Of a DNA stretch of 64,000 bases, positions 129-58,497 are shown in pieces. The notes beneath the pieces were generated by a model, which was not told the origin of the DNA, searched no databases, and saw only the letters and a list, made by a program, of their open reading frames with translations. Source of the DNA: an uncultured Cardiobacteriales bacterium (GTDB lineage: Bacteria; Pseudomonadota; Gammaproteobacteria; CAYWWW01); contig CAYWWW010000002.1 in assembly GCA_964462205.1 (NCBI GenBank), positions 71,223 through 135,222 on the forward strand. The letters run 5' to 3'. Position 1 is the stretch's first letter. Each line of letters starts with the position of its first letter. The position numbers were made by a program, and so were the translations under genes.

Positions 129-2723
129 CTATAACCAATGCTGAAGTCCCAAGCCAAAAGGGTGCGCAGCCGCTTGATGATGGGGCACTAGGCGAAAGCG
201 TAATTGTTGCCGACCAGAGAGTGGTGGTGCGCAGGAGAGACGAAAAATAGTGCTGCCATCGGGATGCCTTTCGCTTGCGCTCAACAATAAGGTATTGGCC
301 GGCGACGCAGTTGAACACTGCACTTGATGGCGTTCACCGCTGCAAAATAAGCATTCGAGGCGCACCTCGTTTTCGCTTAAACCATTTAAAAAGACTTTGA
401 AAGCCAAAGTAATTTTTTCTTGACTCTGAATTTTTTGCGCTGGCATTTCTAAAACTTCCCAACGAATACCCGACCAGGCCTGAAAAACCTGTTGTCGCCA
501 CTCTGCTAGAGCTTTGGCCGTTTCGCCGTCATTGATTTGTAAGCGATTAAAAAGGCCACTGGCGGGTGCATAGGCTTTACGCAAATATTCCTCCACCATG
601 CGCTGGGCATTGAAGCGCGGAATGGTATCCAACATGGCATTTTTGGCACGGCGCACCCAGGCTTCCGAATGACCGTTATCATTTTGATAGTATTCAGGAA
701 TAACTGCATATTCCAAAATATCGAGCAGCTCTTTGGCTTCTTCGGTATCTTGATCCAGCGCTGTGCCATCCGGGGAATTTGGCGGAATCGCCCAACCATT
801 GTCGCCGGTATAACCTTCGCCCCACCAGCCATCTAAAACACTTAAATTGATCACGCCGTTCATGCCAGCTTTTTGCCCTGAAGTACCACTGGCTTCTAAA
901 GGATAGGTCGGATTGTTTAACCAAACATCACAACCGGAAACCAATTTTCGTGCCAAGGCCATATCATAGTTTTCAATCAGAAAAATCTTGCCTTCTAAGC
1001 GCAAATCACGGCTCAGTTGTTGAATATCTTTAATTAACTGTTGACCAGGTTGATCTTTTGGATGCGCTTTGCCAGCAAATAAAAATACTACCGGACGTTT
1101 GCTATCATTGAGAATACGACAAATTCTTTCTAAATCTTTGAAAACTAAAGTTGCACGTTTATAGGTAGCAAAGCGACGCGCAAAACCAATAGTTAAAACA
1201 TTAGGCTTTTCTGGATTGAGATGCTGAAAGAGACGTTTAATATGTGCTTCTGAAAAGCCATGACGTTGATATTGCTGTTGAACTTTATCTTGCACGACTT
1301 TTAGCATCTGACCTTTTAATTCTTGATGAATGCTCCAAAAACTATAATCCGGTAATTTGGGGATGCGTTCCTGCCAATAGCGTTGGTCACAGAGATGGTT
1401 GCGCCATTCCAGACTTAATTGACTATCAAAATAGAGCTTCCACATATTGGCTAAAAAAGTATCTAAATGTACACCATTGGTAATGTAACCCATTGGATTT
1501 TCAGCAGGTGAAATATCAGGCCAGATATAACCCTCCATTTCTGAAGCCACGTGGCCATGAATACGACTGACACCATTGCAATGCCGACTGCCGCGCAAAG
1601 CCAAGCTCGTCATATTAAAACTATGCGGATCATGATGCCCGCCCAAAGCGCAGAGTTTATCAAAACCGATATGTAAATGGGTTTCTGACCAATGGCTTAG
1701 ATATTGTCGCAGGAGATCATGACCAAAAATATCATGACCGGCAGGCACCGGGGTGTGGGTGGTAAATACTTGTGCCGAAGCTGCCAATTCCCAAGCAGTT
1801 TCAAAGTTATAGCCTTGCGCAATCCATTCTCGGCAATGTTCCAGCGCCACAAAAGCGGCATGGCCTTCATTCATGTGTAAAACCGTTGGTGCTACGCTTA
1901 GAGCGCGGAGTGCGCGTAAACCACCAACGCCTAAAATCCATTCTTGTTGTAGGCGGGTTTGTCGGTCGCCGCCATAAAGTTGATGGGTGATTTTTCGGTC
2001 GGCTTCGCTGTTATCAGGATGATCGGTATCTAATAATAACAGGCTGATATTGCCGACTTGTGCTTTCCAGACAACAATTTTTAGACGACGTTCGGCTAGT
2101 TCTAGGTCTAAAATAAGCTCGCTACCCGAGGCGGTTATTGCTGGTTCTATCGCTAAATCCTGTGGCAGCAAAGTGGGATATTCGCTTTGTTGTTGGCCAT
2201 TTTTGTCAATGCGTTGGGTAAAATAACCTTTCCGATATAGTAAACCGACCGCCACAAAGGGTAAGCCTAAGTCACTGGCAGCTTTACAATGATCACCTGC
2301 TAAAATTCCTAAACCACCCGAATAGATCGCTATGCTTTCGTGTAAGCCAAATTCGGCACAAAAATAAGCGATGCAATCTTTTGCGGCATGAAGATGTGGC
2401 GATTTTTCTCTTTTCCAAACAAAGCCTTGCTCTAAAGTATAAGCTGCATGTTGCCGATAATGATCAAAAACCGATAAGGCATGATGAAAACTCGCCATAT
2501 ACACTTCATCTTGTACGGCGGCATCCAGATGCGCTTGATCAACTTGACGTAAAAAGATTTTTGGATTATCGCCACAATCCCGCCAGAGCAGTGGATCAAG
2601 CCGCGCAAACAAAGAACGAATGTCATTGTTCCAGGCGTAATAAAGATTATTGGCTAAATCAGTTAATCGGGTTAAGGGTTTAGGTAGAGTCGCTTCAGCT
2701 TCGATATAAAAAACAGTGGTCAT
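129..2723 (-). CDS. glgP: alpha-glucan (glycogen/maltodextrin) phosphorylase, GT35 family
   Basis: 864-aa ORF; pyridoxal-phosphate lysine signature EASGTSGQKAGMNGV; overall layout typical of bacterial alpha-glucan phosphorylases. Confidence 0.8.
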   Translation of the reverse strand: MTTVFYIEAEATLPKPLTRLTDLANNLYYAWNNDIRSLFARLDPLLWRDCGDNPKIFLRQVDQAHLDAAVQDEVYMASFHHALSVFDHYRQHAAYTLEQGFVWKREKSPHLHAAKDCIAYFCAEFGLHESIAIYSGGLGILAGDHCKAASDLGLPFVAVGLLYRKGYFTQRIDKNGQQQSEYPTLLPQDLAIEPAITASGSELILDLELAERRLKIVVWKAQVGNISLLLLDTDHPDNSEADRKITHQLYGGDRQTRLQQEWILGVGGLRALRALSVAPTVLHMNEGHAAFVALEHCREWIAQGYNFETAWELAASAQVFTTHTPVPAGHDIFGHDLLRQYLSHWSETHLHIGFDKLCALGGHHDPHSFNMTSLALRGSRHCNGVSRIHGHVASEMEGYIWPDISPAENPMGYITNGVHLDTFLANMWKLYFDSQLSLEWRNHLCDQRYWQERIPKLPDYSFWSIHQELKGQMLKVVQDKVQQQYQRHGFSEAHIKRLFQHLNPEKPNVLTIGFARRFATYKRATLVFKDLERICRILNDSKRPVVFLFAGKAHPKDQPGQQLIKDIQQLSRDLRLEGKIFLIENYDMALARKLVSGCDVWLNNPTYPLEASGTSGQKAGMNGVINLSVLDGWWGEGYTGDNGWAIPPNSPDGTALDQDTEEAKELLDILEYAVIPEYYQNDNGHSEAWVRRAKNAMLDTIPRFNAQRMVEEYLRKAYAPASGLFNRLQINDGETAKALAEWRQQVFQAWSGIRWEVLEMPAQKIQSQEKITLAFKVFLNGLSENEVRLECLFCSGERHQVQCSTASPANTLLLSASERHPDGSTIFRLSCAPPLSGRQQLRFRLVPHHQAAAHPFGLGLQHWL

Positions 2724-17840: not shown

Positions 17841-19178
17841 ATGACTGAACTTTTATCCCCCGCCGGCACTTTGAAAAATATGCGTTATGCCTTTGCTTAC
17901 GGTGCCGACGCTGTTTATGCCGGTCAACCCCGTTATTCGTTGCGGGTGCGCAATAATGATTTTTTGAACGATAATTTAACCATCGGCATTCAAGAAGCAC
18001 ACACACAAGGTAAGCGGTTTTATCTCACCTTAAATGGCATTCCGCACAACAATAAAACCAAGACCTTTCTTCGTGACTTGGAAGAAATCATGGACTTAAA
18101 ACCCGATGGCGTGATTATGGCCGATCCTGGGTTAATTGCCTTGGTGCGTGAAAAATATCCCGAATTGCCGGTGCATTTATCGGTGCAAATGAATACGGTC
18201 AATAGTTTGTCGGTGAAGTTTTGGCAAAGTTTAGGCTTAACTCGGGTGATTTTATCCCGCGAACTCGGGCTAGATGAAATTACTGAAATTAAAAGTGATT
18301 GTGCCGATATGGAACTCGAAGTTTTTGTCCACGGTGCTTTGTGTATTGCTTATTCAGGACGTTGTTTATTATCAGGTTATTTTAACCATCGTGATCCCAA
18401 TCAAGGTGCCTGTACCAATGCTTGTCGTTGGGAATATCAAACCGTGGCCGCCGAAGAAAATTTAACCGGTGAAGTCTTACCGATTTCTCGCCAGGCATTG
18501 GAAGCCATGGAGGCAATACCTTTGCAAAATCAAGCACAAGTAGTCAAACGGCATCCGGCTGCTGATAAAGTTTATTTATTGCAGGAAGCGCAGCGTCCGG
18601 GGGAATATTTTCCGATTTTAGAAGATGAGCATGGAACCTATATCATGAATTCCAAAGACTTGCGCGCTGTGCAGCATGTAGATGCCTTAGTAAAAATGGG
18701 TATGGATTGCTTAAAAATTGAAGGTCGTACCAAATCGCATTACTACGTCGCCCGCACCGCGCAGGTCTATCGGCAAGCCATTGACGATGCAAAGGCCGAA
18801 CGACCATTTAATCCTAAGTTGCTTTGGGAACTAGAAAATTTGGCCAATCGTGGTTATACCGAAGGTTTTTATGATCGGCATCCGCCGAATCATTATCAAA
18901 ATTATCAGCAGGATATTTCCCGTAGCAGTCAACAGCAATTTGTCGCTGAAGTGCTTGATAGTCATGGAGACTGGTTGACCGTTGACGTAAAAAATAAATT
19001 TGCGGTTGGCGATACATTACAATGGTTATCCCCGTTGGGTAACGTGGATTTTGTGCTGACAGCCATGGAAAATCTCCACGGTGAAAAAATGGCTTTAGCA
19101 CCCGGTGCTGGTTATCGGGTACGCATCCCAATGCCCGCGCCTTTTCATCCCTATGCTTTGTTATTGCGTTATTTCTAA
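17841..19178 (+). CDS. trhP: U32 family peptidase-like protein, short form (YegQ/TrhP-like tRNA hydroxylation protein)
   Basis: 445 aa; N-terminus ELLSPAGTLKNMRYAFAYGADAVYAGQPRYSLRVRNN and internal EAQRPGEY..EDEHGTYIMNSKDLRA closely follow E. coli YegQ as recalled. Confidence 0.7.
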   Translation: MTELLSPAGTLKNMRYAFAYGADAVYAGQPRYSLRVRNNDFLNDNLTIGIQEAHTQGKRFYLTLNGIPHNNKTKTFLRDLEEIMDLKPDGVIMADPGLIALVREKYPELPVHLSVQMNTVNSLSVKFWQSLGLTRVILSRELGLDEITEIKSDCADMELEVFVHGALCIAYSGRCLLSGYFNHRDPNQGACTNACRWEYQTVAAEENLTGEVLPISRQALEAMEAIPLQNQAQVVKRHPAADKVYLLQEAQRPGEYFPILEDEHGTYIMNSKDLRAVQHVDALVKMGMDCLKIEGRTKSHYYVARTAQVYRQAIDDAKAERPFNPKLLWELENLANRGYTEGFYDRHPPNHYQNYQQDISRSSQQQFVAEVLDSHGDWLTVDVKNKFAVGDTLQWLSPLGNVDFVLTAMENLHGEKMALAPGAGYRVRIPMPAPFHPYALLLRYF

Positions 19179-24778: not shown

Positions 24779-24792
24779 TCTATGATCTTTGC

Positions 24793-25062
<270 letters not shown>

Positions 25063-25091
25063 TTACTCCACATTGATTTATCCTAATTGCT

Positions 25092-29220: not shown

Positions 29221-29402
29221 AAGTTGAAGAAAATAACAAAGCGCATAAACGCTGTGAACTGTCGAAGGGTAAATGCTGACTTAACATTTTGTCCAGACGG
29301 CGATTTATCGGGTTTCTTAATTTTTATCAAAAACTGCTTGGCTTTTTTTGGCATTTTATAACGCTTTTTGACAACCACTTTTAATCTATTTTTGGACAAG
29401 CA

Positions 29403-29612: not shown

Positions 29613-29672
29613 AAAAAACTTGCGCTTGGCTTCTCTTTAATTAGAAAATCTATATGAAGTAAATAATGTGTA

Positions 29673-30336: not shown

Positions 30337-30460
30337 TTTTCCTCCAAAATTGTTGAACCTTGAGCAGAAGCCAACCATACTGCGCATATTTTTTTGCTGC
30401 AACCTTAAAGCTGTGGCTGATAACGGTTTATTGCAGATAAATTTTTTCTAAATCAAAGTA

Positions 30461-33186: not shown

Positions 33187-33634
33187 AAAAAATCAGGTAC
33201 TCGTGAAAAAGGTTGAGAAAAGCGTTGCATGATAATTGGCAAAATAACGCGACCGGTGCAACGAAAAAAAGCGGCATTGGGATGCTTGGCAGGCGGCCAA
33301 GCCAGAATCCCGAGGCGCTGAATCGTACAAATCTTGATAGAAAGAGAGGTCTCTGACCGGGCAGACAGAATTGGTTAGACAGGACTTTTATGCGGCAGAA
33401 AAAAGCCCGATGACAGAAAAAAGTCAATACACGCCAGCCTATGCTTGAACGGCAGTGCGCTGCCAAAGCATATAGCAGCCATGCTATGCTCGCGTTTTTG
33501 ACAGTGGCGGATGTTTTATGGTGTGCATTATTGATAGATAAACCCAGCAGCCATAAAAACCATAAGTTGGTATTTTTATCAAACATTATCAATAGCTTGT
33601 TGAAGTTTGGTAAAGAGCATCCCTGGCTGTCGAG
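33187..33634 (-). promoter_or_regulatory. rne promoter and long 5-prime leader region (shared divergent region with rluC)
   Basis: 448-bp non-coding gap upstream of rne; E. coli rne has a long structured autoregulatory leader; contains one copy of the AGCATCCCAATGCC motif. Confidence 0.4.
33274..33287 (-). repeat. conserved motif AGCATCCCAATGCC, copy in the rne leader
   Basis: minus-strand reading gives GCCAAGCATCCCAATGCCG; other copies at 39262..39275 and 45908..45920 in the same orientation as the downstream gene. Confidence 0.5.
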
Positions 33635-33673: not shown

Positions 33674-34699
33674 ATGGTCAAGCCGTTTTCTTTAGAAAAT
33701 AATCTGTTACAAGTTGCTACTGCCTACGCTGGACAGCGTTTGGATAATTTTTTGCTCTCGCGTTTGCCGCTGACGCGCGGGCATTTGTATAAGTTGATCC
33801 GTACCGGTCAGATCCGCGTCAATGGCAGCCGACAAGCGCCATCGGCGAGGTTAGCCAGCGGTGACGCGATTCGTCTGCCGCCTTTTTTATGTCAGCCCAC
33901 CTGCCAAATGCCGCCACCGCTGCTGCCAGAGCGGGCGAGAAGCGCGCTAAAAACCGCCATTATTTTTGAAAATGATGCTTTTATTGTGCTAGATAAACCC
34001 GCCGGCATTCCCGCCCACGCCGGCAGCGGTTTGCAGTATGGCGTGATTGACATTGTAAGACAACAACTGCCCAACTTCCCCGACTTGGCCTTGGTACACC
34101 GCCTTGATCGTGCCACCAGCGGTCTTTTATTGTTGGCTAAAACCCCGACTGTTTTGCGAACGTTGATCGCGCAGTGGCCAAGTGTTGAAAAAACCTACCT
34201 CGGCGTGGTGGATGATCAACACAACTATTGGCAGTCGAATGACCAGCCACCGACACGAGCTTGGCGTGCGGTGACTTTACCGTTATGGCGTGTGCCGCCG
34301 GAACAAGCTGACAAAGCCAAAGGTAAAGTGCTGGTGCATCCCAATGGCAAAACCGCGCAGACCGATTTTTTTTGTCTCGCCAGTGCGTCAAGCAGCGAGC
34401 AACATCGTCCATGGCGCTTGTTGGCAGCACAACTGCACAGCGGTCGGATGCACCAGATTCGCGTTCATGCCGCGGCTTCTGGTTTTCCCTTGGCCGGCGA
34501 TGTCTTATATCATCCCAAGCCGCGCTGGCCTTCGCCGGAATGGACGGGTTTGCTATTACATGCTTGGCAGTTATCGTTTATTTGGGAAGGGGAAAGGCAG
34601 CTTTTTCAGGCAGATCCGCAACATTGGCACAGCGCTTTACCACGGCTGTTTCCTGATTTTTCGCTGAAAAATGCCGAATTGCCAACGGCCAAGCCATAA
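33674..34699 (+). CDS. rluC: 23S rRNA pseudouridine synthase RluC-like
   Basis: start trimmed to the ATG at 33674; S4-like N-terminus and catalytic HRLDRATSGLLLLAK motif; divergent from rne. Confidence 0.75.
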   Translation: MVKPFSLENNLLQVATAYAGQRLDNFLLSRLPLTRGHLYKLIRTGQIRVNGSRQAPSARLASGDAIRLPPFLCQPTCQMPPPLLPERARSALKTAIIFENDAFIVLDKPAGIPAHAGSGLQYGVIDIVRQQLPNFPDLALVHRLDRATSGLLLLAKTPTVLRTLIAQWPSVEKTYLGVVDDQHNYWQSNDQPPTRAWRAVTLPLWRVPPEQADKAKGKVLVHPNGKTAQTDFFCLASASSSEQHRPWRLLAAQLHSGRMHQIRVHAAASGFPLAGDVLYHPKPRWPSPEWTGLLLHAWQLSFIWEGERQLFQADPQHWHSALPRLFPDFSLKNAELPTAKP

Positions 34700-34713: not shown

Positions 34714-35442
34714 ATGTCATCTCCTGATTTTAAAACGCTGACTTCTAAAGATTTTCCAGAAAATTTCGATAAAATAAGGCATTGTGAATTGCTTATTTTC
34801 GATTGGGATGGCACCTTGGCCAATTCCACTGACCGCATTATTGATGCCATGCAGCGTGCCGCGGTTGCTTGCCATTTGCCGCCGCCAAGTGCCTCGGCGG
34901 TTGCGGCGATCATCGGTTTGGCTTTGCCGGAAGCCTTAGCGCAACTTTTTCCCGCTGCCACTACCACCACTTTGGCTTGTTTAAGTGCTGGTTATCGCCA
35001 ATGGTTTTTATACGACAGTTCCGTCCCTGATGATTTATTCCCAGGTGTTGCGCACTTGCTACAGGACTTACAGCAAGCGGGTTTTTTATTGGCCGTAGCC
35101 ACTGGCAAAAGCCGTCTTGGCTTAAATCGCAGTTTGCGCAAGCAGCAGGTGGCTTCTTATTTTGTCTATAGCCGCTGTGCCGATGAAAGTGCCTCAAAAC
35201 CTAATCCGCTGATGTTAAAACAAATTTTAGCAGCTTGTGCCTTGCCGCCAACGGCAAGCTGTTTGGTCGGCGACAGTGTTTTTGATATACAGATGGCGCA
35301 AACCTTGGCGATAACCACGCAGGCGGTCGGTTTTGGTGCCGGGCATCCCGATGCCTTGCAAGCCTTGTCGCCGGATTATTATTTTTCTACCCCGGAAGCC
35401 TGGATTGCTTTTTGGCGGAATGTTTTAAGCGAATTTTTTTAA
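34714..35442 (+). CDS. HAD-superfamily hydrolase
   Basis: motif I LLIFDWDGTL; 242 aa; same position as the HAD hydrolase after rluC in Pseudomonas-type synteny (from memory). Confidence 0.7.
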   Translation: MSSPDFKTLTSKDFPENFDKIRHCELLIFDWDGTLANSTDRIIDAMQRAAVACHLPPPSASAVAAIIGLALPEALAQLFPAATTTTLACLSAGYRQWFLYDSSVPDDLFPGVAHLLQDLQQAGFLLAVATGKSRLGLNRSLRKQQVASYFVYSRCADESASKPNPLMLKQILAACALPPTASCLVGDSVFDIQMAQTLAITTQAVGFGAGHPDALQALSPDYYFSTPEAWIAFWRNVLSEFF

Positions 35443-37268: not shown

Positions 37269-37886
37269 ATGAAAACAGCATTAGTGGTGGATGATTCCCG
37301 TTTGGCGCGAATCAGTTTGACAAAAATTCTTGAAAAATTAGGCATGCAGGTAGATGCCGTTGAAAACGGTCGGGTGGCGCTGGATTTTTTGAAATCAACA
37401 GATAATCCGCGTCCTGACATTATTTTTATGGATTATTTAATGCCTGAAATGAATGGTTACGAAGCGACCAAGGCTATCAGTAGTAATCCCCATACCATGC
37501 ACATTCCCGTCATCATCTGCACCTCGCAGGAAGACGAAGACAGAGAGCGGCAACGCGCCCGCGCCAATGGTGCGCAAGGCTTTATCAAAAAGCCCATCAC
37601 CGATGAAAAAGTCAATGAAGTTATTCAAGATATGCGCTCAAAAACCCGTGCTGCACCGGCAGCGACAAGTGCACCACCTTCCGATGAAGCGCTACAAAAA
37701 TCTATCAAAACCACCTTGCAAAAATATCTGCCCGACTTAACCGCCGAGATTGCCAAAAAAGTCGAGCATGATTTACTCGAGCATCTGCAAAAGGTCGCAG
37801 CACAACAAAAAGCGCAGCATGAACAACTGGATAGCTTGCATAAACGCCTAAGTCGTATTGAGCAGTTTTTGATGAAAAAAACTTAA
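37269..37886 (+). CDS. stand-alone response-regulator receiver protein, paralogue of the upstream gene
   Basis: AGGA ribosome-binding site; REC residues VVDDS, IIFMDYLMPEMNG, ICTSQ, IKKP; Ala/Pro-rich linker then helical-looking tail. Confidence 0.8.
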   Translation: MKTALVVDDSRLARISLTKILEKLGMQVDAVENGRVALDFLKSTDNPRPDIIFMDYLMPEMNGYEATKAISSNPHTMHIPVIICTSQEDEDRERQRARANGAQGFIKKPITDEKVNEVIQDMRSKTRAAPAATSAPPSDEALQKSIKTTLQKYLPDLTAEIAKKVEHDLLEHLQKVAAQQKAQHEQLDSLHKRLSRIEQFLMKKT

Positions 37887-37906
37887 AACTGAAAAACTTA
37901 AAACTG
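37877..37906 (+). repeat. tandem duplication of a 15-bp unit (AAAAACTTAAAACTG x2) overlapping the stop codon of the second receiver gene
   Basis: two perfect adjacent copies. Confidence 0.6.
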
Positions 37907-37932
37907 AAATGCAAAAGCAGCAATGGATTTTG

Positions 37933-38680: not shown

Positions 38681-39202
38681 ATGATAACACTAGATATGCC
38701 CCTGCCCTATCTGCGCTTGGCACGCGACCAAACGGTTTTACAAGGCGAGACCCCCTTGCGGGATTTTCCGCGTCTGTTGCCGGAACTGACCGATTTCCCC
38801 GCCACTGACAGCCCGCAGCTCTACTACCGATTAGCCTGGCGGCTTTGGCCAGCCTCAAGCCTCGCTGCTGCACAAGGACAATTGATCACCACCTTGCCTT
38901 TGCGCTGTCAACGGTGTTTGCTGCCATTGGCTTGGCCGCTGGTCTATGACCTGCATTGGGTATTTATTGACAAGCCGGAGGATGCTGAGGTTTTGCCGGA
39001 GGATGTAGAAGCGATTGATCCAAAAGAAGCGCTGTCGGTATTGAATTTACGCTATCTTTTAGAAGACAGCCTGCTTTTGGCGCTGCCTTTGTTTCCGCGG
39101 CATCCCGATGCGGATTGCGCGGGACTCGGCACGATTGGCAAAGCACGGCCACAGCCCTTTGCGGCACTGGCCGACTTAAAAATTCGTAAAAAAGACCCCT
39201 AA
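38681..39202 (+). CDS. yceD: YceD family protein (DUF177)
   Basis: start trimmed to the ATG at 38681; Cys pairs CQRC and DADCAGLG; position directly upstream of rpmF. Confidence 0.7.
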   Translation: MITLDMPLPYLRLARDQTVLQGETPLRDFPRLLPELTDFPATDSPQLYYRLAWRLWPASSLAAAQGQLITTLPLRCQRCLLPLAWPLVYDLHWVFIDKPEDAEVLPEDVEAIDPKEALSVLNLRYLLEDSLLLALPLFPRHPDADCAGLGTIGKARPQPFAALADLKIRKKDP

Positions 39203-39275
39203 AAAATTTTAGTAAAACTCCCCTGAAAAAATTTCTGAAAAATTTCTAAAAAATTCGCCAAAGCATCCCAATGCC
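39203..39275 (+). promoter_or_regulatory. phased A-tract array ending in the motif AGCATCCCAATGCC, upstream of rpmF
   Basis: five A5-6 tracts at roughly 10-13-bp spacing then CGCCAAAGCATCCCAATGCC (motif 39262..39275), about 130 nt upstream of rpmF. Confidence 0.45.
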
Positions 39276-39404
39276 CTGCGCTAGGTGGAGGCTAGGCCAA
39301 GCACTTTGCGCAGGTCTGGTGCAGGGTTACACGAAAAGCCTTGTGCTGCATCCTGATTTTTCTGTATTATTTGCCACTTTTTTATTTGTAACGAGGAAAC
39401 CCCT

Positions 39405-42122: not shown

Positions 42123-43961
42123 ATGTCCGATAGGCTACTTCCGCCCTTTGATGCAAAGACATTTTTGGCGACAGCGCCAGAAAAAAGCGGTGTTTATCAG
42201 ATGTATAACGCTAAAAAGCAGTGTTTGTACGTCGGTAAGGCCAAAAATCTCAAAAAACGCCTGACCAGTTATTTTCAACGCCAAGTCAGCGCCAAAACGG
42301 CGCGGCTGGTGGCGGAAATTCAACAGATTGAACTCATTATTACCCAATCCGAAGCCGAAGCGCTGCTTTTGGAAAGCAATCTCATCAAAGCTCGGCAGCC
42401 GCGTTACAACGTCCTGTTGCGCGACGATAAAAGTTATCCTTTTTTGCTTTTGGAAGATGGCGACTTTCCACGTTTGGCCTTTTATCGCGGCCATAAACCG
42501 AAAGCAGGCCAAGCCTTCGGGCCGTATCCCAATGCCCAGGCGGTGCGGGAAAATCTCGTGTTATTACAAAAAGTTTTTCGGCTGCGTGTCTGTGAGGACA
42601 GTGTGTTCAAAAATCGTGACCGTCCCTGTTTAGAGTACCAAATTCAACGCTGTAGTGCGCCTTGTGTCGGTTTAGTGGCACCTGCGGATTATCACAGCGA
42701 AGCCGAACGCGCGCGCGATTTTTTATCGGGGAAAGACGTACAGTTTTTGCTGAAACAATTGGTGGACAATATGCAGCAGGCGGCACAGGCTTTGGAATAC
42801 GAACGGGCCGCTTATTTTCGCGATCAGATCGCCCGCTTACAGCAGATGCGTCAAGAGCAAACTGTTTATAGTGACGCTGGCGATGTAGATATTTTTTCCT
42901 TGGTTGACAATGGCTTGCAGGCCGCTTTGGCCGTTTTGTGGGTGCGCCAAGGACGACTGCTCGGCAGCGACGTGCGTTTATTAACCTTGCCGGAAAGTTT
43001 AAGTACTGAGGCGATTTTGACCTCAGCAATTCCGCAGTATTATCAAAAACATTTGCCACCAAAGACCATTATTTTGCCGCAAGCGCTTAAAGCGGCAGCG
43101 CTGTGGCAAGCCGCCTGGCAACAGCAGGACGGGCAAGCGCGTCAATGTATCAGCGGCCAACACAATGCTTTACAAAAGCGTTGGTTAGCGATGGCAGAGG
43201 CCAATGCCACCCAGCATCTCCAGGCGCAAGCCGCGAAATTTGCCGCCTGGCAGGCCGGTTTTGCCGCTATCGCCGAGGTTTTGGCGCTACCGGCATTGGA
43301 ACGCATTGAATGTTTTGACATCAGCCATCAGCACGGCCAAGGCACCGTCGCCGGTTTGGTCACGTTTACGCCAGACGGTGCCTTGAAAAGCGCCTATCGG
43401 CGTTATCATATTGAAAACATTACGCCAGGCGATGACTATGCTGCCTTGGCGCAGGCGGTGACGCGGCGTTTTCGTAACACTGAAATTTATCCTGAAATTT
43501 ATCCTGATTTATTGTTGATTGATGGCGGCAAAGGTCAAGTGCAGGCAGTGCAGGCAGCGCTGGCAACCCTTGGCGCAGCTTTGCCGACCTTGCCAATGCT
43601 TGGCATTACCAAAAATAAGGAACGCAAAGCTGGTGAGGAGCGCTTTTATCGGCCAGAACTTGAGCAATTTTTGGCTTTGCCACCAACGCATCCGGCTTTG
43701 CGCTGTCTTTTGGCGATTCGCGATGAAGCACACGGTTTTGCTTTGCGCGGCGGCCAGTTACGGCAAAAAAAGCGCCTGCTGCAATCGCGTTTAGAAGCGA
43801 TTCCTGGCCTCGGCAAAAAACGTCGGCAACTGCTGTTGCAATACTTTGGCGGTTTTCGCGAAGTCGAGGCGGCGGCACCAGCCGATTTGGCCAAGGTGCC
43901 GGGCATTGGGATGACCTTAGCGCAGTTGATTTATGCGCATCTTCATGCAGAAAGTCCATGA
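42123..43961 (+). CDS. uvrC: excinuclease ABC subunit C
   Basis: 612 aa; GIY-YIG N-terminus (GVYQMYN..CLYVGKAKNLKKRL); C-terminal helix-hairpin-helix region. Confidence 0.9.
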   Translation: MSDRLLPPFDAKTFLATAPEKSGVYQMYNAKKQCLYVGKAKNLKKRLTSYFQRQVSAKTARLVAEIQQIELIITQSEAEALLLESNLIKARQPRYNVLLRDDKSYPFLLLEDGDFPRLAFYRGHKPKAGQAFGPYPNAQAVRENLVLLQKVFRLRVCEDSVFKNRDRPCLEYQIQRCSAPCVGLVAPADYHSEAERARDFLSGKDVQFLLKQLVDNMQQAAQALEYERAAYFRDQIARLQQMRQEQTVYSDAGDVDIFSLVDNGLQAALAVLWVRQGRLLGSDVRLLTLPESLSTEAILTSAIPQYYQKHLPPKTIILPQALKAAALWQAAWQQQDGQARQCISGQHNALQKRWLAMAEANATQHLQAQAAKFAAWQAGFAAIAEVLALPALERIECFDISHQHGQGTVAGLVTFTPDGALKSAYRRYHIENITPGDDYAALAQAVTRRFRNTEIYPEIYPDLLLIDGGKGQVQAVQAALATLGAALPTLPMLGITKNKERKAGEERFYRPELEQFLALPPTHPALRCLLAIRDEAHGFALRGGQLRQKKRLLQSRLEAIPGLGKKRRQLLLQYFGGFREVEAAAPADLAKVPGIGMTLAQLIYAHLHAESP

Positions 43962-45826: not shown

Positions 45827-45920
45827 TAAAAATTTTCGCCTAAAAGTTTATCTAAAAGTTTCATTCAAAAAAGTTATCTAAAAAAGTTATCTAAAAAAGT
45901 TATTGAGAGCATCCCAATGC
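45827..45920 (+). promoter_or_regulatory. AT-rich tandem repeat array ending in AGCATCCCAATGC, overlapping the bioF-like start codon
   Basis: units TAAAAGTTTATC / TAAAAGTTTCAT / TCAAAAAAGTTATC / TAAAAAAGTTATC / TAAAAAAGTTATTG then GAGAGCATCCCAATGCG, in which ATG is the bioF-like start. Confidence 0.45.
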
Positions 45921-47053
45921 GCCAACCTGAAACAATTTTAGCCGAAAAGCGCCAAAAACAGCTTTGGCGACAACGCCAAACCCTGACTTCGGCCAATGCT
46001 GCCTGGGTGCAAGTGCAAGGCCGTTGGTTCAGTAACTTCACCAGTAACGATTACTTAGGCTTGGCCTCTCATCCGGCTTTAGCCCAAGCGGCTTATCACG
46101 CCGGTCAGCGCTATGGCTGGGGGAGTGGCGCGTCACCCTTGATTTCCGGTTTTACGGCAGAACATCAAGCACTTGAAGAAGAATTGGCCGATTGGTTAAA
46201 TTATCCAGCGGTTTTATTGTTTAACAGCGGACATGCGGCAAACACCGGAATTTTAAGCAGTTTCCTGGAGCATTCCGATGTGGTCATTGCTGATAAAGCC
46301 ATTCATGCCTCGATGATTGATGGTGTTTTAGCGGCGCAAGCGCGGTTGCTGCGTTTTTCGCATAACGATATTTTGGCGGCGGAAAAACTCCTGCAAACGC
46401 ATCCCGAGGCGCTGTTTTTAAGCGAAGGCGTTTTTAGCATGGATGGCGACAGTCCGCCTTTGGCAGCTTGGCAGGCCAAACTTGTGCAACGGCTGTGGTT
46501 TTTGGATGACGCGCATGGTTTTGGCATTTGGGGGGAGCAAGGGCGCGGAACTTTGTGGCAGCAGAACTTGGCCTTGCGTCCGCCGCTGCTTTTAGGAACT
46601 TTTGGCAAAGCCTTTGGCAGCCACGGGGCATTTATTGCTTGTTCAACAACTTGGCGGGATTTTTTTCTGCATGAAGCCAGGAGTTTGATCTATTCAACGG
46701 CGATGCCAGCGGCGGTGGCAGCAGCGAATCGCCAAGCCTTGAAATTACTGCGGCATGGCGAGGCGCGTCGAGAAAAACTTTTTGAAAATATTGCTGAATT
46801 TCGGGATTATGCCGAAAAAGCCGGCTGGCCGGTAGGAAAAAGTTTTTCAGCGATTCAATGGCTAAATTTACAAACCGCTGAAAAAACTTTAGCAGTTCAA
46901 CAAAAACTTTGGCAATCCGGCATTTGGGTGAGCGCCATTCGTCCGCCGACAGTGCCGCCACAGACGGCGCGGTTGCGGATCAGTTTTTCTAGTTTACATT
47001 CAAGTCAGCAAATTCAAAGACTTTTGCAAGAATTAGATAAAATTCTTGTTTAG
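45917..47053 (+). CDS. bioF: 8-amino-7-oxononanoate synthase-like PLP-dependent alpha-oxoamine synthase
   Basis: 378 aa; FSNFTSNDYLGL, GVFSMDGD, PLP-lysine context TFGKAFG, C-terminal AIRPPTVP..TARLR all parallel E. coli BioF as recalled; no other bio genes adjacent. Confidence 0.65.
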   Translation: MRQPETILAEKRQKQLWRQRQTLTSANAAWVQVQGRWFSNFTSNDYLGLASHPALAQAAYHAGQRYGWGSGASPLISGFTAEHQALEEELADWLNYPAVLLFNSGHAANTGILSSFLEHSDVVIADKAIHASMIDGVLAAQARLLRFSHNDILAAEKLLQTHPEALFLSEGVFSMDGDSPPLAAWQAKLVQRLWFLDDAHGFGIWGEQGRGTLWQQNLALRPPLLLGTFGKAFGSHGAFIACSTTWRDFFLHEARSLIYSTAMPAAVAAANRQALKLLRHGEARREKLFENIAEFRDYAEKAGWPVGKSFSAIQWLNLQTAEKTLAVQQKLWQSGIWVSAIRPPTVPPQTARLRISFSSLHSSQQIQRLLQELDKILV

Positions 47054-53156: not shown

Positions 53157-53662
53157 CAGGGGGTAGCACTTGACTTAGGATAGAGCAGCATCTCAATGCC
53201 GCCTTTACCACTGGCTTTAAGACGACTTTGATTTAAATCATAGGTTAAACTTTGGCTGCGCATCTGATTTTTCCCTTGGGATAATTCGGCATCGCCTTCT
53301 AAAATTAAAAGACCACTATCCAGGCGATAGGATAAACGTTTTGCTTGTCCCTGCCATAGACCATCGTTGCTTTGCTGTTGAAAACGCAGCGGATTTCCAT
53401 TGGCTTCCAAGCGACTTGGCTGTTGATTATCAAAAAAAACGATGACTTTGTCCGCGCTTAAACGAAAACTATCCTGGTTAATTTGCACTTTACCGCTATA
53501 AATAGCTTGATTATTTTTTAAGTCAACTTCTAAACTATCAGCTTTAATTTGAATGACTTGCTGACTGAGAAGTGTATCTTGTCCCTGCGCTAAATTAAAA
53601 CCAAAACTTAAAATACATAACATCAACGGCAAAAAAAATAGCTCTATTGGCTTAAAGCGCAT
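53156..53662 (-). CDS. lptA: LPS transport periplasmic protein LptA
   Basis: 168 aa; signal peptide; OstA-like beta-jellyroll pattern; between lptC and lptB. Confidence 0.8.
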   Translation of the reverse strand: MRFKPIELFFLPLMLCILSFGFNLAQGQDTLLSQQVIQIKADSLEVDLKNNQAIYSGKVQINQDSFRLSADKVIVFFDNQQPSRLEANGNPLRFQQQSNDGLWQGQAKRLSYRLDSGLLILEGDAELSQGKNQMRSQSLTYDLNQSRLKASGKGGIEMLLYPKSSATP

Positions 53663-54301
53663 TTATTTAACTTCCATAGGCATTGGGATGACGGGAGGCA
53701 TTGCTTGCTGGTGGTTTTTATCTAAATAAATCCAGGTTTCTACTTGAGATAAATGCAAGCGCTGCGCTTGATAAAATAAGCCAGCAGCTTGGCCAGCGCT
53801 CATTTTGGCCTGCCAAAAGATTGGATCATTACTTTTGGCCGTGCGATTTTTTAGATCAATAACGAGCGTCTTTAAGTCTAAGACTAAATCTTGCTGTGAA
53901 AGTGCAGCTTGTTCTAAAAACAATTGATTTTCTTTGGAAAAACCAGTTTTTGCCTCTACTGAAAAATCCTGCCATTGCCAGCGCAAATCGAAAAATTCGA
54001 CTGCTGGCGAGGCATCCAAATGCAATTTTTGCACACTTGCCTGTTGTTGCATTGGTAAAAATAGACGATCTTCTCGATCAACTTCTTGATCAATTTCATT
54101 AAAAGTTAAGTCTTTGTTGATTTCTCCTGATGTTTCAGCGTTGGCATAACTACTGACCGTCACTTGATAAAAAGTGCTGGTGGTAAAATTCGGTGAGAGG
54201 TTATCTAAAGATAACTGTGGCGCTTGCTGTCCTATAAACCAGAGAAAAACCAACAGGGTAAGCGACAATAACAACCAAAGACGTAGGCTTAGTTTAAGCA
54301 T
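53663..54301 (-). CDS. lptC: LPS export system protein LptC
   Basis: start trimmed to the ATG at 54301 (MLKLSLRLWLLLSLTLLVFLWF membrane anchor); about 212 aa; position between kdsC and lptA. Confidence 0.7.
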   Translation of the reverse strand: MLKLSLRLWLLLSLTLLVFLWFIGQQAPQLSLDNLSPNFTTSTFYQVTVSSYANAETSGEINKDLTFNEIDQEVDREDRLFLPMQQQASVQKLHLDASPAVEFFDLRWQWQDFSVEAKTGFSKENQLFLEQAALSQQDLVLDLKTLVIDLKNRTAKSNDPIFWQAKMSAGQAAGLFYQAQRLHLSQVETWIYLDKNHQQAMPPVIPMPMEVK

Positions 54302-55881: not shown

Positions 55882-56769
55882 TTATAAGTTTTTGTCCGAG
55901 CGGTGCAAGGCCAGTATGGCTTCCTGGCTTGACAAGCGTGGCTTGAAATCTAAAAGTTTTTCGGAAGAAGTGCAATCCATGATTAAACTATGCTCAGCAT
56001 GATGAAACCAGTGCGGATCAGCGCTTGCATCATCCCAATCCCCTAAAAATTGCAAAGTTTGCTTAAATAGCCAAACTGGCATTGGCCAAGCAATACCATG
56101 ATAATACTTGATATAATCTTGCCAAGTTAAAGCGGGTTGCGCACTTAAACAAAAATTACCGGTTAATTGTCGTGACACCAAGGCCAAAATGCCTTGTGCA
56201 GCATCGCTAGTGGCTAGACAAGAAAATTTTCCAGGATGTTGAAAATTTGGATAAAAAGGTAAAGCAAGCATCCTCGCTACCATGATTTGCAGGGGTTGAC
56301 CTAAAAGCATTGGCAGCCGCAAACTTGCTGTTTTTAAAGAAGATAAATTAAGATTTGCCAAATATTGTTCAACGGCAATTTTATCTTGCGCGTAAGGAAA
56401 GCGACTATGGGTTAATTCCGCGGCAATGCTTGAAATAAAGAGCAGGTAGGATAGGCCAAAGTCAGCAGCTAGGGAAAAAAGTCTTTGACTTTGTTGAACA
56501 TTTTGGAAAAATCGCCAACGTGCACGATTGGGATGCTGGCTGCGCATTCCCCCTAATAAAAAAGCGCTATGCAGACAAATATCACTTTTTCGTAAAGCGT
56601 GCAGTGCTGGCGGCGCAGAAAAATCGCTTTGAATATGCAAATAATTTCGATGTTTGACATGGTGCGCCGGTCGTTTATCAATGCCAAAAACAAAATAACC
56701 AGCTTTTAATAAAGCGGGTAATAGATAATAAGCCAAACTACCGCTGGCACCCGTTAAAAAGATTTTCAT
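55882..56769 (-). CDS. NAD-dependent epimerase/dehydratase family protein
   Basis: N-terminal Rossmann motif IFLTGASGSLA; YAQDK (YxxxK) catalytic motif; 295 aa. Confidence 0.6.
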   Translation of the reverse strand: MKIFLTGASGSLAYYLLPALLKAGYFVFGIDKRPAHHVKHRNYLHIQSDFSAPPALHALRKSDICLHSAFLLGGMRSQHPNRARWRFFQNVQQSQRLFSLAADFGLSYLLFISSIAAELTHSRFPYAQDKIAVEQYLANLNLSSLKTASLRLPMLLGQPLQIMVARMLALPFYPNFQHPGKFSCLATSDAAQGILALVSRQLTGNFCLSAQPALTWQDYIKYYHGIAWPMPVWLFKQTLQFLGDWDDASADPHWFHHAEHSLIMDCTSSEKLLDFKPRLSSQEAILALHRSDKNL

Positions 56770-57441: not shown

Positions 57442-58497
57442 TCAACTTATCTTATTTTCTTGTGGCTGGGTTTGATATTCGGGCATGATTTCGCGGTGAA
57501 AATAATCCAGATGTGTCAGCACCAATTCGGCATCTACCGCGCCAGCACCAATAGCCGAAACGAGGTGTGTTACCCCAGCTTTCTGCAATTTTTCAATGAC
57601 TTTTTTACAGTCAGTAGCATTGCCGACCATAACCATTCCCAGCGCTTGTAAGAGTTCCAAGGAAATGCCAGCGCTTAAAAATTGTTCAAAAAGATGAAAG
57701 CGATGGTAATAATTATAACCTTCATATAAATTTTTTAATAAAGGTCGTGTTTGTTCGAGTAAGGCTTTATAAAACCATTCCAATGCCGGTTTTGCCGCTT
57801 GCCAAGCGGCTTGCCGATTGGGCAGGCAGAGGCTGCCAAGGGTCACGGCAATGCGCGGCGGTTCAGGCCAAGCCCACTGTTTAAGAAATTGCTTGATGTC
57901 CGCTTCAATCATAAACCACGGCTTAAACGGGCCGATTAACACCCCTAAACCTTCTTTCGCAGCAAAAACAAAACTTTCTGGACTCGCCGCTGCCGTCCAC
58001 AATGGCGGCAATTGTTGCAAAGGTTGGGGTAAAACGGTTAAGGGTATGCCTTGGTAGTCCACTTGATCTTTTCCAGACCAGGCTTTTTTAAGCCATTGTA
58101 AATGTTCAAAAGTAATGGAGCGGCTATCTCCCATACTTTGTGAAAAAACTTGGTATTCTTCCGGGGAGAAACCACGGCCAATACCGACTTCTAAGCGTCC
58201 CTCCGATAATACATCTAAAGTTCCCAAACGCTCGGCAACCCGCAAGGGATGATGGTAGGGTAAAGGTACCACGCCATAACCTAAACGTAAGGTTTTGGTT
58301 TTGGCCGCCAAATAGCTTAAAAAAACATCCGGGGCACTGGAATGCGAAAAGGCCGGCATAAAATGATGTTCAACCAGCCAGATGCCATGAAAACCAAAGG
58401 CTTCCGCTTGCTGTGCTTCTAAAATTGTCCGTTGAAAAACGCTTTTTTCGCTTTGTCCTGGGAGAACCGATAATTCATAAAAAAGATCGAAATACAT
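57442..58497 (-). CDS. LLM-class flavin-dependent oxidoreductase (luciferase-like monooxygenase)
   Basis: 351 aa; N-terminal pattern FGFHGIWLVEHHF and GRLEVGIGRG typical of the luciferase-like family. Confidence 0.75.
   Translation of the reverse strand: MYFDLFYELSVLPGQSEKSVFQRTILEAQQAEAFGFHGIWLVEHHFMPAFSHSSAPDVFLSYLAAKTKTLRLGYGVVPLPYHHPLRVAERLGTLDVLSEGRLEVGIGRGFSPEEYQVFSQSMGDSRSITFEHLQWLKKAWSGKDQVDYQGIPLTVLPQPLQQLPPLWTAAASPESFVFAAKEGLGVLIGPFKPWFMIEADIKQFLKQWAWPEPPRIAVTLGSLCLPNRQAAWQAAKPALEWFYKALLEQTRPLLKNLYEGYNYYHRFHLFEQFLSAGISLELLQALGMVMVGNATDCKKVIEKLQKAGVTHLVSAIGAGAVDAELVLTHLDYFHREIMPEYQTQPQENKIS

What the first reader, a model, noticed from the sequence alone, without database searches (positions are those of the whole stretch)
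39203..39275. Recurring palindromic motif AGCATCCCAATGCC in the same orientation as three downstream genes, twice preceded by phased A-tract arrays
The 14-mer occurs at 39262..39275 (upstream of rpmF-plsX-fabH), 45908..45920 (13 of 14; overlaps the bioF-like ATG) and 33274..33287 on the minus strand (rne leader). GCAT/ATGC form inverted arms around CCCA. At the rpmF and bioF sites it is preceded by four to five A-tracts spaced about 10-13 bp, the spacing that produces intrinsically bent DNA. Three copies of a 13-14-mer in 64 kb are far above chance. This may be an operator or promoter module for an unknown regulator, or a small repeated element.
Basis: seen in the sequence. Interest (0 to 1): 0.55.

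Follow-up and report, generated by a model that had tools for sequence, protein, structure and literature searches.

The report
Genome-scattered over-represented 14-base quasi-palindrome
The three "operator" copies belong to a short DNA word (rGCATCCCrATGCC) scattered far too often through genes and spacers of one uncultured gammaproteobacterial lineage, and it is still being created by directed base changes, as DNA-uptake signal sequences are.

Summary
The three copies are the intergenic members of a dispersed family. The 12-mer CATCCCAATGCC occurs 5 times perfectly, 8 times with one mismatch and 18 times with two, against 0.005, 0.35 and 5.9 expected. GCAT-N4-ATGC occurs 15 times against 1.5 expected, and other spacings are at chance. 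Ten of the 13 best copies lie inside genes, in several frames and both orientations, and are fitted in with rare codons and amino-acid replacements. A closer relative (85-88% nt identity) shares the enrichment. It has gained further copies by clustered substitutions (E->N, Q->N, ED->NA). A more distant relative (75-80%) has no perfect copy, and its yceD-rpmF spacer lacks the motif and A-tract array but keeps a conserved promoter-like block. The A-tract arrays are real, but they repeat every 12-13 bp, so they are not helically phased, and similar arrays are common in this genome's spacers. A gene-specific operator or promoter is not supported. My best reading is a lineage-specific word kept up by a sequence-specific drive, most like a DNA uptake sequence (about 0.4). 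HIP-like or architectural-site readings are not excluded. Only about 80 kb of this clade could be examined.

The parts
39262..39275 (+). AGCATCCCAATGCC, exact 14-mer, in the yceD-rpmF spacer, 60 nt after the yceD stop and 130 nt before the rpmF ATG
   Evidence: Absent from the orthologous spacer of the JGI relative.
33273..33286 (-). AGCATCCCAATGCC, exact 14-mer, in the rne 5' leader, 87 nt before the rne ATG. Its first bases overlap a GCTTGGC/GCCAAGC hairpin.
45908..45921 (+). AGCATCCCAATGCG (13/14). Its ATG is the start codon of the bioF-like aminotransferase gene.
   Evidence: The closer relative has GCATCCACATGCG here; the distant relative has no motif.
19122..19135 (+). CGCATCCCAATGCC inside the U32 peptidase (TrhP/YegQ-like) gene, 48 nt from its stop, read as R-I-P-M-P
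   Evidence: Homologues have R-I-P-L-P (L in 105 of 119, M in 2), so the window changed L to M and created the word.
42523..42536 (+). CGTATCCCAATGCC inside uvrC, sense, read as Y-P-N-A
   Evidence: Identical in the closer relative; TATCCCAACGCC in the distant relative.
43902..43915 (-). GTCATCCCAATGCC, antisense, at the 3' end of uvrC, about 45-50 nt before the pgsA start. It uses the rare Gly codon GGG (7% usage).
   Evidence: The distant relative has GGC (CATGCCAATGCC).
53679..53692 (-). GTCATCCCAATGCC at the C-terminus of the ORF in the lptC position (I-P-M-P), 17 nt before the lptA start
   Evidence: Conserved in the closer relative.
53187..53200 (+). AGCATCTCAATGCC, antisense, in the 3' end of lptA
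   Evidence: Identical in the closer relative; CATTTCTATGCC in the distant relative.
34335..34348 (+). TGCATCCCAATGGC inside rluC, sense, read as H-P-N-G
35342..35355 (+). GGCATCCCGATGCC inside the HAD hydrolase gene (G-H-P-D-A), with perfect 5-bp inverted arms and the rare GGG codon
38323..38336 (-). GGCATCCCCATGCC inside maf (R-H-P-H-A), with perfect 5-bp arms
56029..56042 (+). ATCATCCCAATCCC, antisense, in the epimerase gene
57774..57787 (+). ACCATTCCAATGCC, antisense, in the luciferase-like monooxygenase gene
39099..39112 (+). GGCATCCCGATGCG, a weaker member, inside yceD (R-H-P-D-A, Arg as CGG)
255..268 (-). GGCATCCCGATGGC, a weaker member, inside the phosphorylase-like gene. Arg is encoded by AGG (2% usage).
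39201..39258 (+). Array of five A-tracts with a period of about 12 bp, directly 5' of the rpmF-side motif. Association with the motif is uncertain.
45842..45903 (+). Tandem array of a 13-nt unit (AAAAAAGTTATCT, 4.8 copies), directly 5' of the bioF-side motif. Only 2 units in the closer relative.

Best explanation
Descriptive part, about 0.9 confidence. The 14-mer is not a private control site of rpmF, bioF and rne. It is one instance of a lineage-specific, chromosome-dispersed, hugely over-represented quasi-palindromic word: consensus rGCAT-CCCr-ATGCC, with 5-bp inverted arms at a fixed 4-bp spacing and an asymmetric C-rich centre. The word is kept up at the DNA level whatever it overlaps, whether spacers, gene ends or gene interiors, in several frames and on both strands. 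Mechanistic part, inferred, about 0.4 confidence (this is the confidence value given for the whole explanation). The word behaves like a DNA-uptake-enhancing sequence (DUS/USS type). A sequence-specific step favours DNA that carries the word. The likeliest such step is preferential uptake and recombination of 'self' DNA by a competence receptor, possibly a dimer given the inverted arms. Any mutation that improves a near-match then spreads, and copies pile up wherever proteins or spacers tolerate them. What is shown: the excess, the fixed spacing, the codon and amino-acid distortions, the new copies gained in a sister lineage, and the absence of perfect copies in the next relative. What is inferred: that the favouring step is DNA uptake. 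The A-tract arrays beside two copies are probably ordinary spacer features of this AT-tract-rich genome and not part of the word.
For: Excess: 12-mer counts of 5/8/18 (0/1/2 mismatches) against 0.005/0.35/5.9 in order-3 Markov simulations; 13 14-mer sites against 0.59 expected. In 1.23 Mb of other proteobacterial loci the rates are 0/0.47/7.0 per 64 kb. Architecture: GCAT-N4-ATGC occurs 15 times against 1.46 expected, spacings of 0-12 other than 4 give 0-3, and the half-sites alone are not enriched. No larger repeat surrounds the word. DNA-level pressure: Pro is CCC in 9 of 10 H-P-[DNH] tripeptides against 19% usage overall. Rare GGG, AGG and CGG codons supply the left 'GG'. TrhP has L->M at a position where 105 of 119 homologues have L. 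The copies sit in at least two sense frames as well as antisense. Ongoing gain: the closer relative L204 (85-88% nt identity) has 3 perfect and 4 one-mismatch copies in 15.8 kb. Five of the 6 window copies in the shared region are fully conserved, while only 28% of random 12-mers are (by my arithmetic P about 0.008). L204 has extra copies made by clustered substitutions, polarised by the outgroup: bioF THPEA->THPNA, uvrC QHLQA->QHLNA, fadL NPED->NPNA. Lineage specificity: the JGI relative (58 kb, 75-80% identity) has 0 perfect and 3 one-mismatch copies. Permissive placement: 9 of 13 copies lie within 110 nt of a gene end (P about 0.003). This matches the published description of uptake sequences, which are hundreds to thousands of copies, lie in genes and spacers, gather in permissive regions and show reading-frame bias (10.1101/2025.10.24.684340). 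Independent assemblies agree: L081 matches the window with 0 mismatches in 5274 nt.
Against: Only 64 kb of this genome and 15.8 kb of the sister lineage could be examined, so genome-wide abundance is an extrapolation. Copies are uneven in the window: 8 of 13 fall in the 32-48 kb quarter (P about 0.017). Known uptake sequences are not palindromic. About half of them sit in terminators, often as inverted pairs. Here no copy forms a convincing terminator, and the only hit is a weak minus-strand match. Density is about 0.2 per kb at <=1 mismatch, which from my own knowledge is at the low end for uptake sequences. No competence or pilus gene lies in the window, so competence of the host is unknown. 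The host is outside the only two families known to have uptake sequences. Orientation is mildly skewed: 9:4 on the + strand, and 11:4 with the two L204 gains. That leaves room for a polar signal.
Confidence: 0.4

Rival explanations
1. Binding-site array of an abundant chromosome-organising protein (Noc/SlmA/MatP/ParB-like). A dimeric DNA-binding protein recognises the 5-4-5 inverted repeat. The sites are selected for chromosome organisation or segregation and so may lie inside genes and cluster regionally.
For: Inverted arms with strictly fixed spacing. The flanks are roughly symmetric: G at -1 in 10 of 12 copies and C at +1 in 9 of 12 (my count). Copies cluster regionally, with 8 of 13 in one 16-kb quarter. 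Existing sites are conserved above background in the sister lineage. From my own knowledge, known sites of this kind are 12-16-bp palindromes that often lie in coding DNA.
Against: From my own knowledge, the density (0.2-0.44 per kb) is roughly ten times that of known systems. The centre is asymmetric and conserved. New sites arise fast in gene interiors at the cost of amino-acid changes. The next relative lacks perfect copies, whereas such systems are usually shared across families.
Confidence: 0.15
2. HIP-like iterated palindrome. The word is created and kept up by a methylation-linked, sequence-specific short-patch repair that converts near-matches to matches, as proposed for cyanobacterial HIP1.
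For: It is a palindrome-like, hyper-abundant word found in genes and spacers, lineage-specific and conserved above background. HIP1 is 15-300-fold over-represented and tied to orphan methyltransferases (PMC5861425 and PMC4390886, seen as abstracts).
Against: The word is 14 bp with an asymmetric centre, not a perfect 8-mer. The gains include transversions at several positions at once (G->T, G->C, C->A), which a T:G-type patch repair would not produce. No DNA methyltransferase or Vsr-like gene lies in the window.
Confidence: 0.12
3. Polar recombination or repair signal (Chi-like, or a translocase-orienting sequence), selected on the leading strand.
For: GC skew is positive across the whole window, so the + strand is probably the leading strand. 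9 of 13 copies are on +, and 11 of 15 when the two new L204 copies are added. The word is dispersed in genes.
Against: The skew is not significant (my arithmetic gives P about 0.06-0.13), and it is confounded with gene orientation. From my own knowledge, known Chi and KOPS words are 5-8 nt and only a few-fold enriched. Here a 12-mer is about 1000-fold enriched. The C-rich strand, not the G-rich one, is the one favoured on the presumed leading strand.
Confidence: 0.08
4. One reading: an operator or promoter element of a regulon that includes rpmF-plsX-fabH, bioF and rne, with the A-tract arrays acting as upstream bent DNA.
For: All three intergenic copies face the downstream gene. By my own count from the ORF coordinates, 9 of 13 copies lie within 200 nt upstream of some start codon. 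The two strongest AT-rich arrays both abut a copy. The bioF arrangement is partly retained in the closer relative.
Against: Most copies are inside genes, and four of those are antisense. The new copies arise in gene interiors. The motif and array are absent from the orthologous rpmF spacer, while a nearly invariant promoter-like block downstream is kept. No promoter is predicted at the motif and no partner element is shared. The A-tracts are not helically phased. The second word, TTATGCCTCTGCCTT, behaves differently: its two intergenic copies are retained in the distant relative.
Confidence: 0.07
5. Templated patch conversion. An abundant short nucleic acid carrying the word (for example a retron-like or other small DNA or RNA) anneals to near-matches and overwrites them.
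For: In three independent L204 gains the 3' hexamer was rewritten to AATGC(C/G) next to a pre-existing (C/A)ATC(C/T)C, with 3-5 changes inside 6 nt.
Against: The surrounding sequence is also highly diverged, so stepwise change is equally possible. No such element was seen in the window. There is no precedent for this that I know of.
Confidence: 0.04
6. Chance, codon or peptide bias, or an assembly artefact.
For: H-P-D is a common peptide in PlsX homologues, so that weak copy may be protein-driven.
Against: None of the shuffles or simulations comes near the observed counts. Several frames and both strands are used. Disfavoured codons are used to fit the word. The same copies are present in independent assemblies.
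Confidence: 0.01

Closest known systems
DNA uptake sequences of Neisseriaceae (DUS, 10-12 nt, read by the minor pilin ComP)
   Same: A short specific word that is hundreds- to a thousand-fold over-represented and lies in genes and spacers. It gathers in permissive places and shows reading-frame preference. It is shared by sister lineages and lacking in the next relative, which loosely resembles dialect-like lineage specificity. Copies occur in uvrC (2 in the window, 3 in L204).
   Different: DUS is not palindromic. About half of DUS copies sit in terminators, often as inverted pairs, and none do here. From my own knowledge DUS density is about 1 per kb, against about 0.2-0.4 here. The host is an unrelated gammaproteobacterial clade. 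Neither a receptor nor competence has been shown.
Uptake signal sequences of Pasteurellaceae (USS: 9-nt core plus helically phased AT-rich flanks)
   Same: The same genomic signature as above. From my own knowledge of the USS flanks, the AT-rich tracts next to a core recall the A-tract arrays beside two copies here.
   Different: Only 2 of 13 copies have A-tract neighbours, and these repeat every 12-13 bp and not once per helical turn. The sequences are unrelated and the taxon is different.
HIP1 (GCGATCGC) and alternate highly iterated palindromes of cyanobacteria
   Same: A palindrome-like word that is hyper-abundant inside and outside genes, lineage-specific, conserved more than its surroundings, and of debated function.
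   Different: HIPs are perfect 8-mers tied to methyltransferases that read their inner bases. This word is a 14-bp quasi-palindrome with an asymmetric centre. No methyltransferase link could be tested.
Palindromic chromosome-organisation sites (Noc NBS, SlmA SBS, MatP matS, ParB parS)
   Same: From my own knowledge, these are 12-16-bp inverted repeats with fixed spacing that often lie inside genes and cluster regionally.
   Different: From my own knowledge, they are far sparser and usually conserved over wide taxonomic ranges. They are not known to spread by rapid gains that change amino acids.
Chi and KOPS-type polar words
   Same: Dispersed in coding DNA, with some strand preference.
   Different: From my own knowledge, they are 5-8 nt, only a few-fold enriched and strongly polar. 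This word is 12-14 nt, about 1000-fold enriched and weakly skewed.

Membership tests
DNA uptake enhancing sequences (DUS/USS) | A specific 9-12-nt word present in hundreds to thousands of copies, far above chance | tested here: met
   5 perfect copies against 0.005 expected in 64 kb, and 3 perfect copies in 15.8 kb of the sister lineage. The genome-wide number is only an extrapolation.
DNA uptake enhancing sequences (DUS/USS) | Copies both in genes and in spacers, concentrated in permissive regions, with reading-frame bias | tested here: met
   10 of 13 copies are in genes. 9 of 13 lie within 110 nt of a gene end. The CAT|CCC|AAT|GCC frame dominates.
DNA uptake enhancing sequences (DUS/USS) | A large fraction lies within intrinsic terminators, often as inverted pairs | tested here: not met
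   No inverted pairs of the word. The only terminator-like hit is a weak minus-strand match at 39278-39259.
DNA uptake enhancing sequences (DUS/USS) | Shared among related species, with dialect variation | tested here: inconclusive
   Shared by the window and L204. The JGI relative has 0 perfect copies and only a slight excess of near-matches, with no distinct dialect.
DNA uptake enhancing sequences (DUS/USS) | The host has competence machinery and a sequence-specific receptor (ComP or ComN minor pilin) | not testable with these tools
   No pilus or com genes in the 64-kb window. The rest of the genome could not be fetched.
DNA uptake enhancing sequences (DUS/USS) | Preferential uptake of DNA carrying the word | not testable with these tools
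   Needs an experiment.
DNA uptake enhancing sequences (DUS/USS) | The host belongs to Neisseriaceae or Pasteurellaceae | tested here: not met
   The best named homologues are Thiothrix, Halothiobacillaceae and Thiohalobacterales at 53-66% identity. Only two relatives exist above 80% identity.
Highly iterated palindromes (HIP1-like) | A perfect short palindrome | tested here: not met
   5-bp arms, but a conserved asymmetric centre CCCr.
Highly iterated palindromes (HIP1-like) | A cognate (orphan) DNA methyltransferase reads the word | not testable with these tools
   The window holds only protein, rRNA and small-molecule-type methyltransferase domains. No methylation data are available.
   3 of 13 sites are intergenic. 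The new gains lie in gene interiors.
   Absent from the yceD-rpmF spacer of the JGI relative. The bioF site is degenerate in L204 and absent in the JGI relative. The rne site could not be compared.
Sigma-54 promoter (reverse complement GGCATTGGGATGC) | GG and GC elements separated as GG-N10-GC and pointing toward the gene | tested here: not met
   The sequence shows GG-N9-GC, and in the three spacers it points away from the downstream genes (read directly). The consensus spacing is from my own knowledge.
REP / MITE-type intergenic repeats | A longer conserved unit confined to spacers | tested here: not met
   No similarity beyond the 14 bp. Most copies are in genes.
Intrinsically bent A-tract DNA / UP-element | A-tracts repeated in phase with the helix (about 10-11 bp) | tested here: not met
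   Periods are about 12 and 13 bp. Coherence at 10.5 bp is 0.41 and 0.28.
Chi / KOPS polar words | A short (5-8 nt) word strongly co-oriented with replication | tested here: inconclusive
   The length does not fit. Orientation is 9:4 (11:4 with the L204 gains) on the strand with positive GC skew, which is not significant.

The most novel reading that the evidence does not exclude
This is a third, independently evolved family of DNA-uptake-enhancing sequences, the first outside Neisseriaceae and Pasteurellaceae. It sits in an uncultured gammaproteobacterial clade, and the one sister contig whose source is known comes from a Yellowstone hot-spring mat. It is young enough to be caught in expansion: abundant in two sister lineages, still gaining copies, and essentially absent from the next relative. 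Its quasi-palindromic 14-mer would imply a dimeric receptor.
Probability: 0.3. Interest if true: 0.85.

Novelty: new variant of a known kind. Interest (0 to 1): 0.6.

Why it matters
According to a 2025 survey (10.1101/2025.10.24.684340), words that mark 'self' DNA for uptake are known from only two bacterial families, and how such systems arise is unresolved. Here the word is abundant in two sister lineages. Fresh copies can be polarised against an outgroup that has no perfect copy. That would give a natural time series for the birth of such a system: which positions are gained first, what protein cost is tolerated, and which gene was acquired alongside it. If the mechanism turns out to be something else, such as a HIP-like repair drive or a dense architectural site array, it would still be a new example of a strong sequence-specific force shaping coding DNA. 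There is also a practical lesson. Three intergenic copies of a word do not make a regulon until its copies inside genes have been counted.

Tried and rejected
1. Sigma-70 promoter scan at the three spacers. Nothing lies at the motif. The rne spacer has a candidate far upstream at 33614-33585.

2. Sigma-54 reading of the reverse complement. The spacing is one base short and the orientation is wrong.

3. Sigma-32-like and sigma-28-like readings (CTAAAAA-N13/14-TCCCAATG). I dropped these as numerology. They fit only the two A-tract sites and cannot explain the copies inside genes.

4. RNA structure. The folds of 39255-39345 and of the rne leader are not unusual (z = -1.85 and -0.95), and the word pairs differently in each.

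5. Rfam finds only two tRNAs in the window.

6. A larger repeat or mobile element around the word: none.

7. A protein-motif explanation. It is rejected for the family as a whole because several frames and rare codons are used, but it is accepted as possible for the weak PlsX 'HPD' copy.

8. A dialect in the distant relative: none found.

9. Getting more of the genome.
- The genome-contig scan with PlsX was swamped by distant homologues of at most 54% identity.
- The metagenome scan with YceD found nothing.
- Other window proteins, including the one at its end, are not on record.
For that reason I did not run the same scan on metagenomes.

10. Literature search for the word itself returned only unrelated primer sequences.

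Full report
**1. The observation.** AGCATCCCAATGCC is exact at 39262-39275 (+) and at 33273-33286 (-). A 13/14 copy lies at 45908-45921 (+), and its ATG is the first start codon of the aminotransferase (bioF-like) ORF at 45917. All three copies face the downstream gene.

Both the rpmF and the bioF copies follow five A-tracts. TRF reports an 11-nt unit at 39226-39255 and 24-25-nt rows covering 39178-39242. It reports a 13-nt unit in 4.8 copies at 45842-45903.

**2. The three copies are a fraction of a larger family.** With up to two mismatches the 14-mer has 13 sites against 0.59 expected, and none of 100 shuffles reached 13. The 12-mer CATCCCAATGCC occurs 5, 8 and 18 times at 0, 1 and 2 mismatches, against 0.005, 0.35 and 5.9 in order-3 Markov simulations. 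It is the top over-represented 11-12-mer family of the window.

The unit is a quasi-palindrome.
- GCAT-N4-ATGC occurs 15 times against 1.46 expected.
- Every other spacing from 0 to 12 gives 0-3.
- The half-sites alone are not enriched.
- The centre is CCCA, CCCG or a near variant.
- The flanks are G(G) on the left and C(C) on the right.

The consensus is therefore rGCAT-CCCr-ATGCC. Nothing beyond these 14 bp is shared between copies.

**3. Where the copies lie.** Ten of the 13 best copies are inside genes.
- Sense orientation: trhP/yegQ-like U32 gene, rluC, the HAD hydrolase gene, maf, uvrC, and the ORF in the lptC position.
- Antisense orientation: the uvrC 3' end, lptA, the epimerase gene and the luciferase-like monooxygenase gene.

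Sense copies use two frames, CAT|CCC|AAT|GCC and ATC|CCA|ATG|CCC.

The DNA is bent to fit the word.
- Pro is CCC in 9 of 10 H-P-[D/N/H] tripeptides, against 19% CCC usage overall.
- The left 'GG' is supplied by AGG (2% usage), CGG (17%) or GGG (7%).
- The uvrC antisense copy uses GGG where the relative has GGC.
- In the TrhP-like protein the family motif R-I-P-L-P (L in 105 of 119 homologues, M in 2) has become R-I-P-M-P. That change creates CCAATGCC.

Nine of 13 copies lie within 110 nt of a gene end (P about 0.003, threshold chosen after the fact). Eight of 13 lie in the 32-48 kb quarter (P about 0.017).

**4. Relatives.** This clade is sparsely sampled. Protein searches found only two relatives above 80% identity, and the next homologues are at 53-66% (Thiothrix, Halothiobacillaceae, Thiohalobacterales).

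*The more distant relative.* Three syntenic contigs, L082, L083 and L205, total 58 kb at 75-80% nt identity. They come from IMG 3300040982, a 44 C Yellowstone mat (PMC9600594). They hold 0 perfect and 3 one-mismatch copies. At the orthologous positions of the window's copies the relative usually differs by one to four bases.

Its yceD-rpmF spacer is short and lacks both the A-tract array and the word. The roughly 70 nt before rpmF are almost invariant between the two genomes (TTGTGC-18 nt-TATTAT, then the ribosome-binding region). In the window that block lies downstream of the word.

*The closer relative.* L204 (Logan SRR24236066, 15.8 kb, 85-88% nt identity) has 3 perfect and 4 one-mismatch copies. 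Five of the six window copies in the shared region are conserved base for base. Only 28% of random 12-mers are, which by my arithmetic gives P about 0.008.

L204 also has copies the window lacks. The outgroup shows these are gains.

| Gene | Window / outgroup | L204 |
|---|---|---|
| bioF | T-H-P-E-A | T-H-P-N-A (perfect 12-mer) |
| uvrC | Q-H-L-Q-A | Q-H-L-N-A |
| fadL | N-P-E-D | N-P-N-A |

Each gain took 3-5 substitutions within six bases, all toward the consensus. The word is therefore lineage-specific, maintained once formed, and still being created at the cost of amino-acid changes.

**5. What this excludes.**
- A gene-specific operator or promoter is not supported. Most copies are in genes, new ones arise in gene interiors, and the rpmF copy is absent from the orthologous spacer while a conserved promoter-like block is kept. 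No sigma-70-type promoter is predicted at the word. The reverse complement misses the sigma-54 spacing by one base.
- RNA-level roles find no support.
- REP/MITE-type elements are excluded by the lack of any larger unit and by the location in genes.
- Chance, peptide bias and assembly artefact are excluded by the statistics, the multiple frames, the rare codons and the agreement of independent assemblies.

**6. The A-tract arrays.** They are real, but A/T tracts are numerous in every spacer of 90 nt or more (3-19 each), and TRF lists short A-rich tandem arrays at many places without the word. Their periods are about 12 and 13 bp. Coherence at 10.5 bp is 0.41 and 0.28, so planar bending does not follow.

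Two points remain unexplained. The two highest-scoring AT-rich arrays of the window both end 3-6 nt before a copy. The bioF arrangement persists in L204 with two repeat units and a drifted centre, GCATCCACATGCG. I treat the association as suggestive and unresolved.

**7. Mechanism.** A roughly 1000-fold excess of a 12-14-mer that ignores reading frame, distorts codons and proteins, gathers in permissive places and keeps gaining copies in one lineage calls for a strong sequence-specific force. The best-characterised force that produces this signature is preferential uptake and recombination of DNA carrying an uptake sequence. The published description fits: hundreds to thousands of copies, in genes and spacers, in permissive regions, with frame bias, and even a bias toward UvrABC genes (10.1101/2025.10.24.684340).

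Several things speak against simple membership.
- The word is quasi-palindromic.
- It does not sit in terminators.
- Density is modest.
- The host is outside the two known families.
- Competence cannot be assessed from this window.

I therefore put 'works like an uptake sequence' at about 0.4 and do not file it as a DUS or USS.

The rivals are these.
- Dense architectural protein sites (0.15). The fixed-spacing inverted arms and the clustering favour this. The density and the rapid, costly gains argue against it.
- A HIP-like methylation or repair drive (0.12). The palindromic form favours it. The multi-position transversions and the 14-bp asymmetric form argue against it (HIP1 references).
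- A polar Chi-like signal (0.08). Orientation is 9:4 to 11:4 on the strand with positive GC skew.
- Templated patch conversion (0.04).

**8. Limits.** Only about 80 kb of the motif-rich clade was reachable. Genome-wide statements are extrapolations. Several P values rest on thresholds chosen after seeing the data.

Noticed in passing
window 19205-19219, 20415-20429, 45177-45191; L083 11361 and 12546: A second exact 15-mer, TTATGCCTCTGCCTT, occurs three times. Two copies flank the periplasmic binding-protein gene (19314-20321), and both are retained at the orthologous spots in the distant relative with one mismatch each. That is the behaviour of a genuinely conserved cis element, unlike the main word. 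The third copy lies inside queA and encodes L-M-P-L-P.
   Followed up: partly
window 39336-39404; L082 5531-5602: The roughly 70 nt just upstream of rpmF are almost identical in the window and the distant relative, while the flanking genes are only 69-78% identical. The block contains TTGTGC-18 nt-TATTAT and the ribosome-binding region, and is probably the real rpmF promoter and leader.
   Followed up: partly
window 39336 (start of L081); L204 contig end: The Logan assembly of SRR7048222 breaks exactly at 39336, right after the A-tract/word/hairpin segment. By my estimate from gene lengths, the SRR24236066 contig also ends about 300 nt upstream of plsX. This suggests the upstream segment is polymorphic or hard to assemble, for example through repeat copy-number variation.
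   Followed up: no
window 45842-45903 versus L204 10965-10995: The 13-nt A-rich unit upstream of bioF is present in about 5 copies in the window and 2 in the closer relative. It is a variable-number tandem repeat directly before a start codon.
   Followed up: partly
whole window, e.g. 11811-11838, 20344-20372, 37877-37909, 60265-60295: AAAATTTT is the most frequent octamer (36 copies). Many spacers carry short tandem arrays of A-rich 10-15-nt units.
   Followed up: partly
window 19237-19275; L083 11395-11430: An inverted repeat, TTGCAATGC-N17-GCATTGC, lies upstream of the binding-protein gene and is partly conserved in the distant relative. It may be an operator or a leader structure.
   Followed up: no
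window 1-12000: This stretch (phosphorylase-like gene, RND efflux pump, a second U32 peptidase) is not syntenic with the distant relative, which has ccm genes there. It holds no copy of the main word at <=1 mismatch.
   Followed up: no
window 33290-33310 (-): A perfect 7-bp hairpin, GCTTGGC-CGCCT-GCCAAGC, lies in the long rne leader (about 390 nt if the predicted promoter at 33614-33585 is used). It overlaps the first bases of the word and is followed 13 nt later by a run of seven T.
   Followed up: no
window 24350-25091, 29221-29672, 30009-30460: Three long gaps (450-740 nt) are left between ORFs of >=100 aa. In the relative the first gap holds small genes (an 88-aa ferredoxin and a 53-aa ORF). 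The others were not examined.
   Followed up: no
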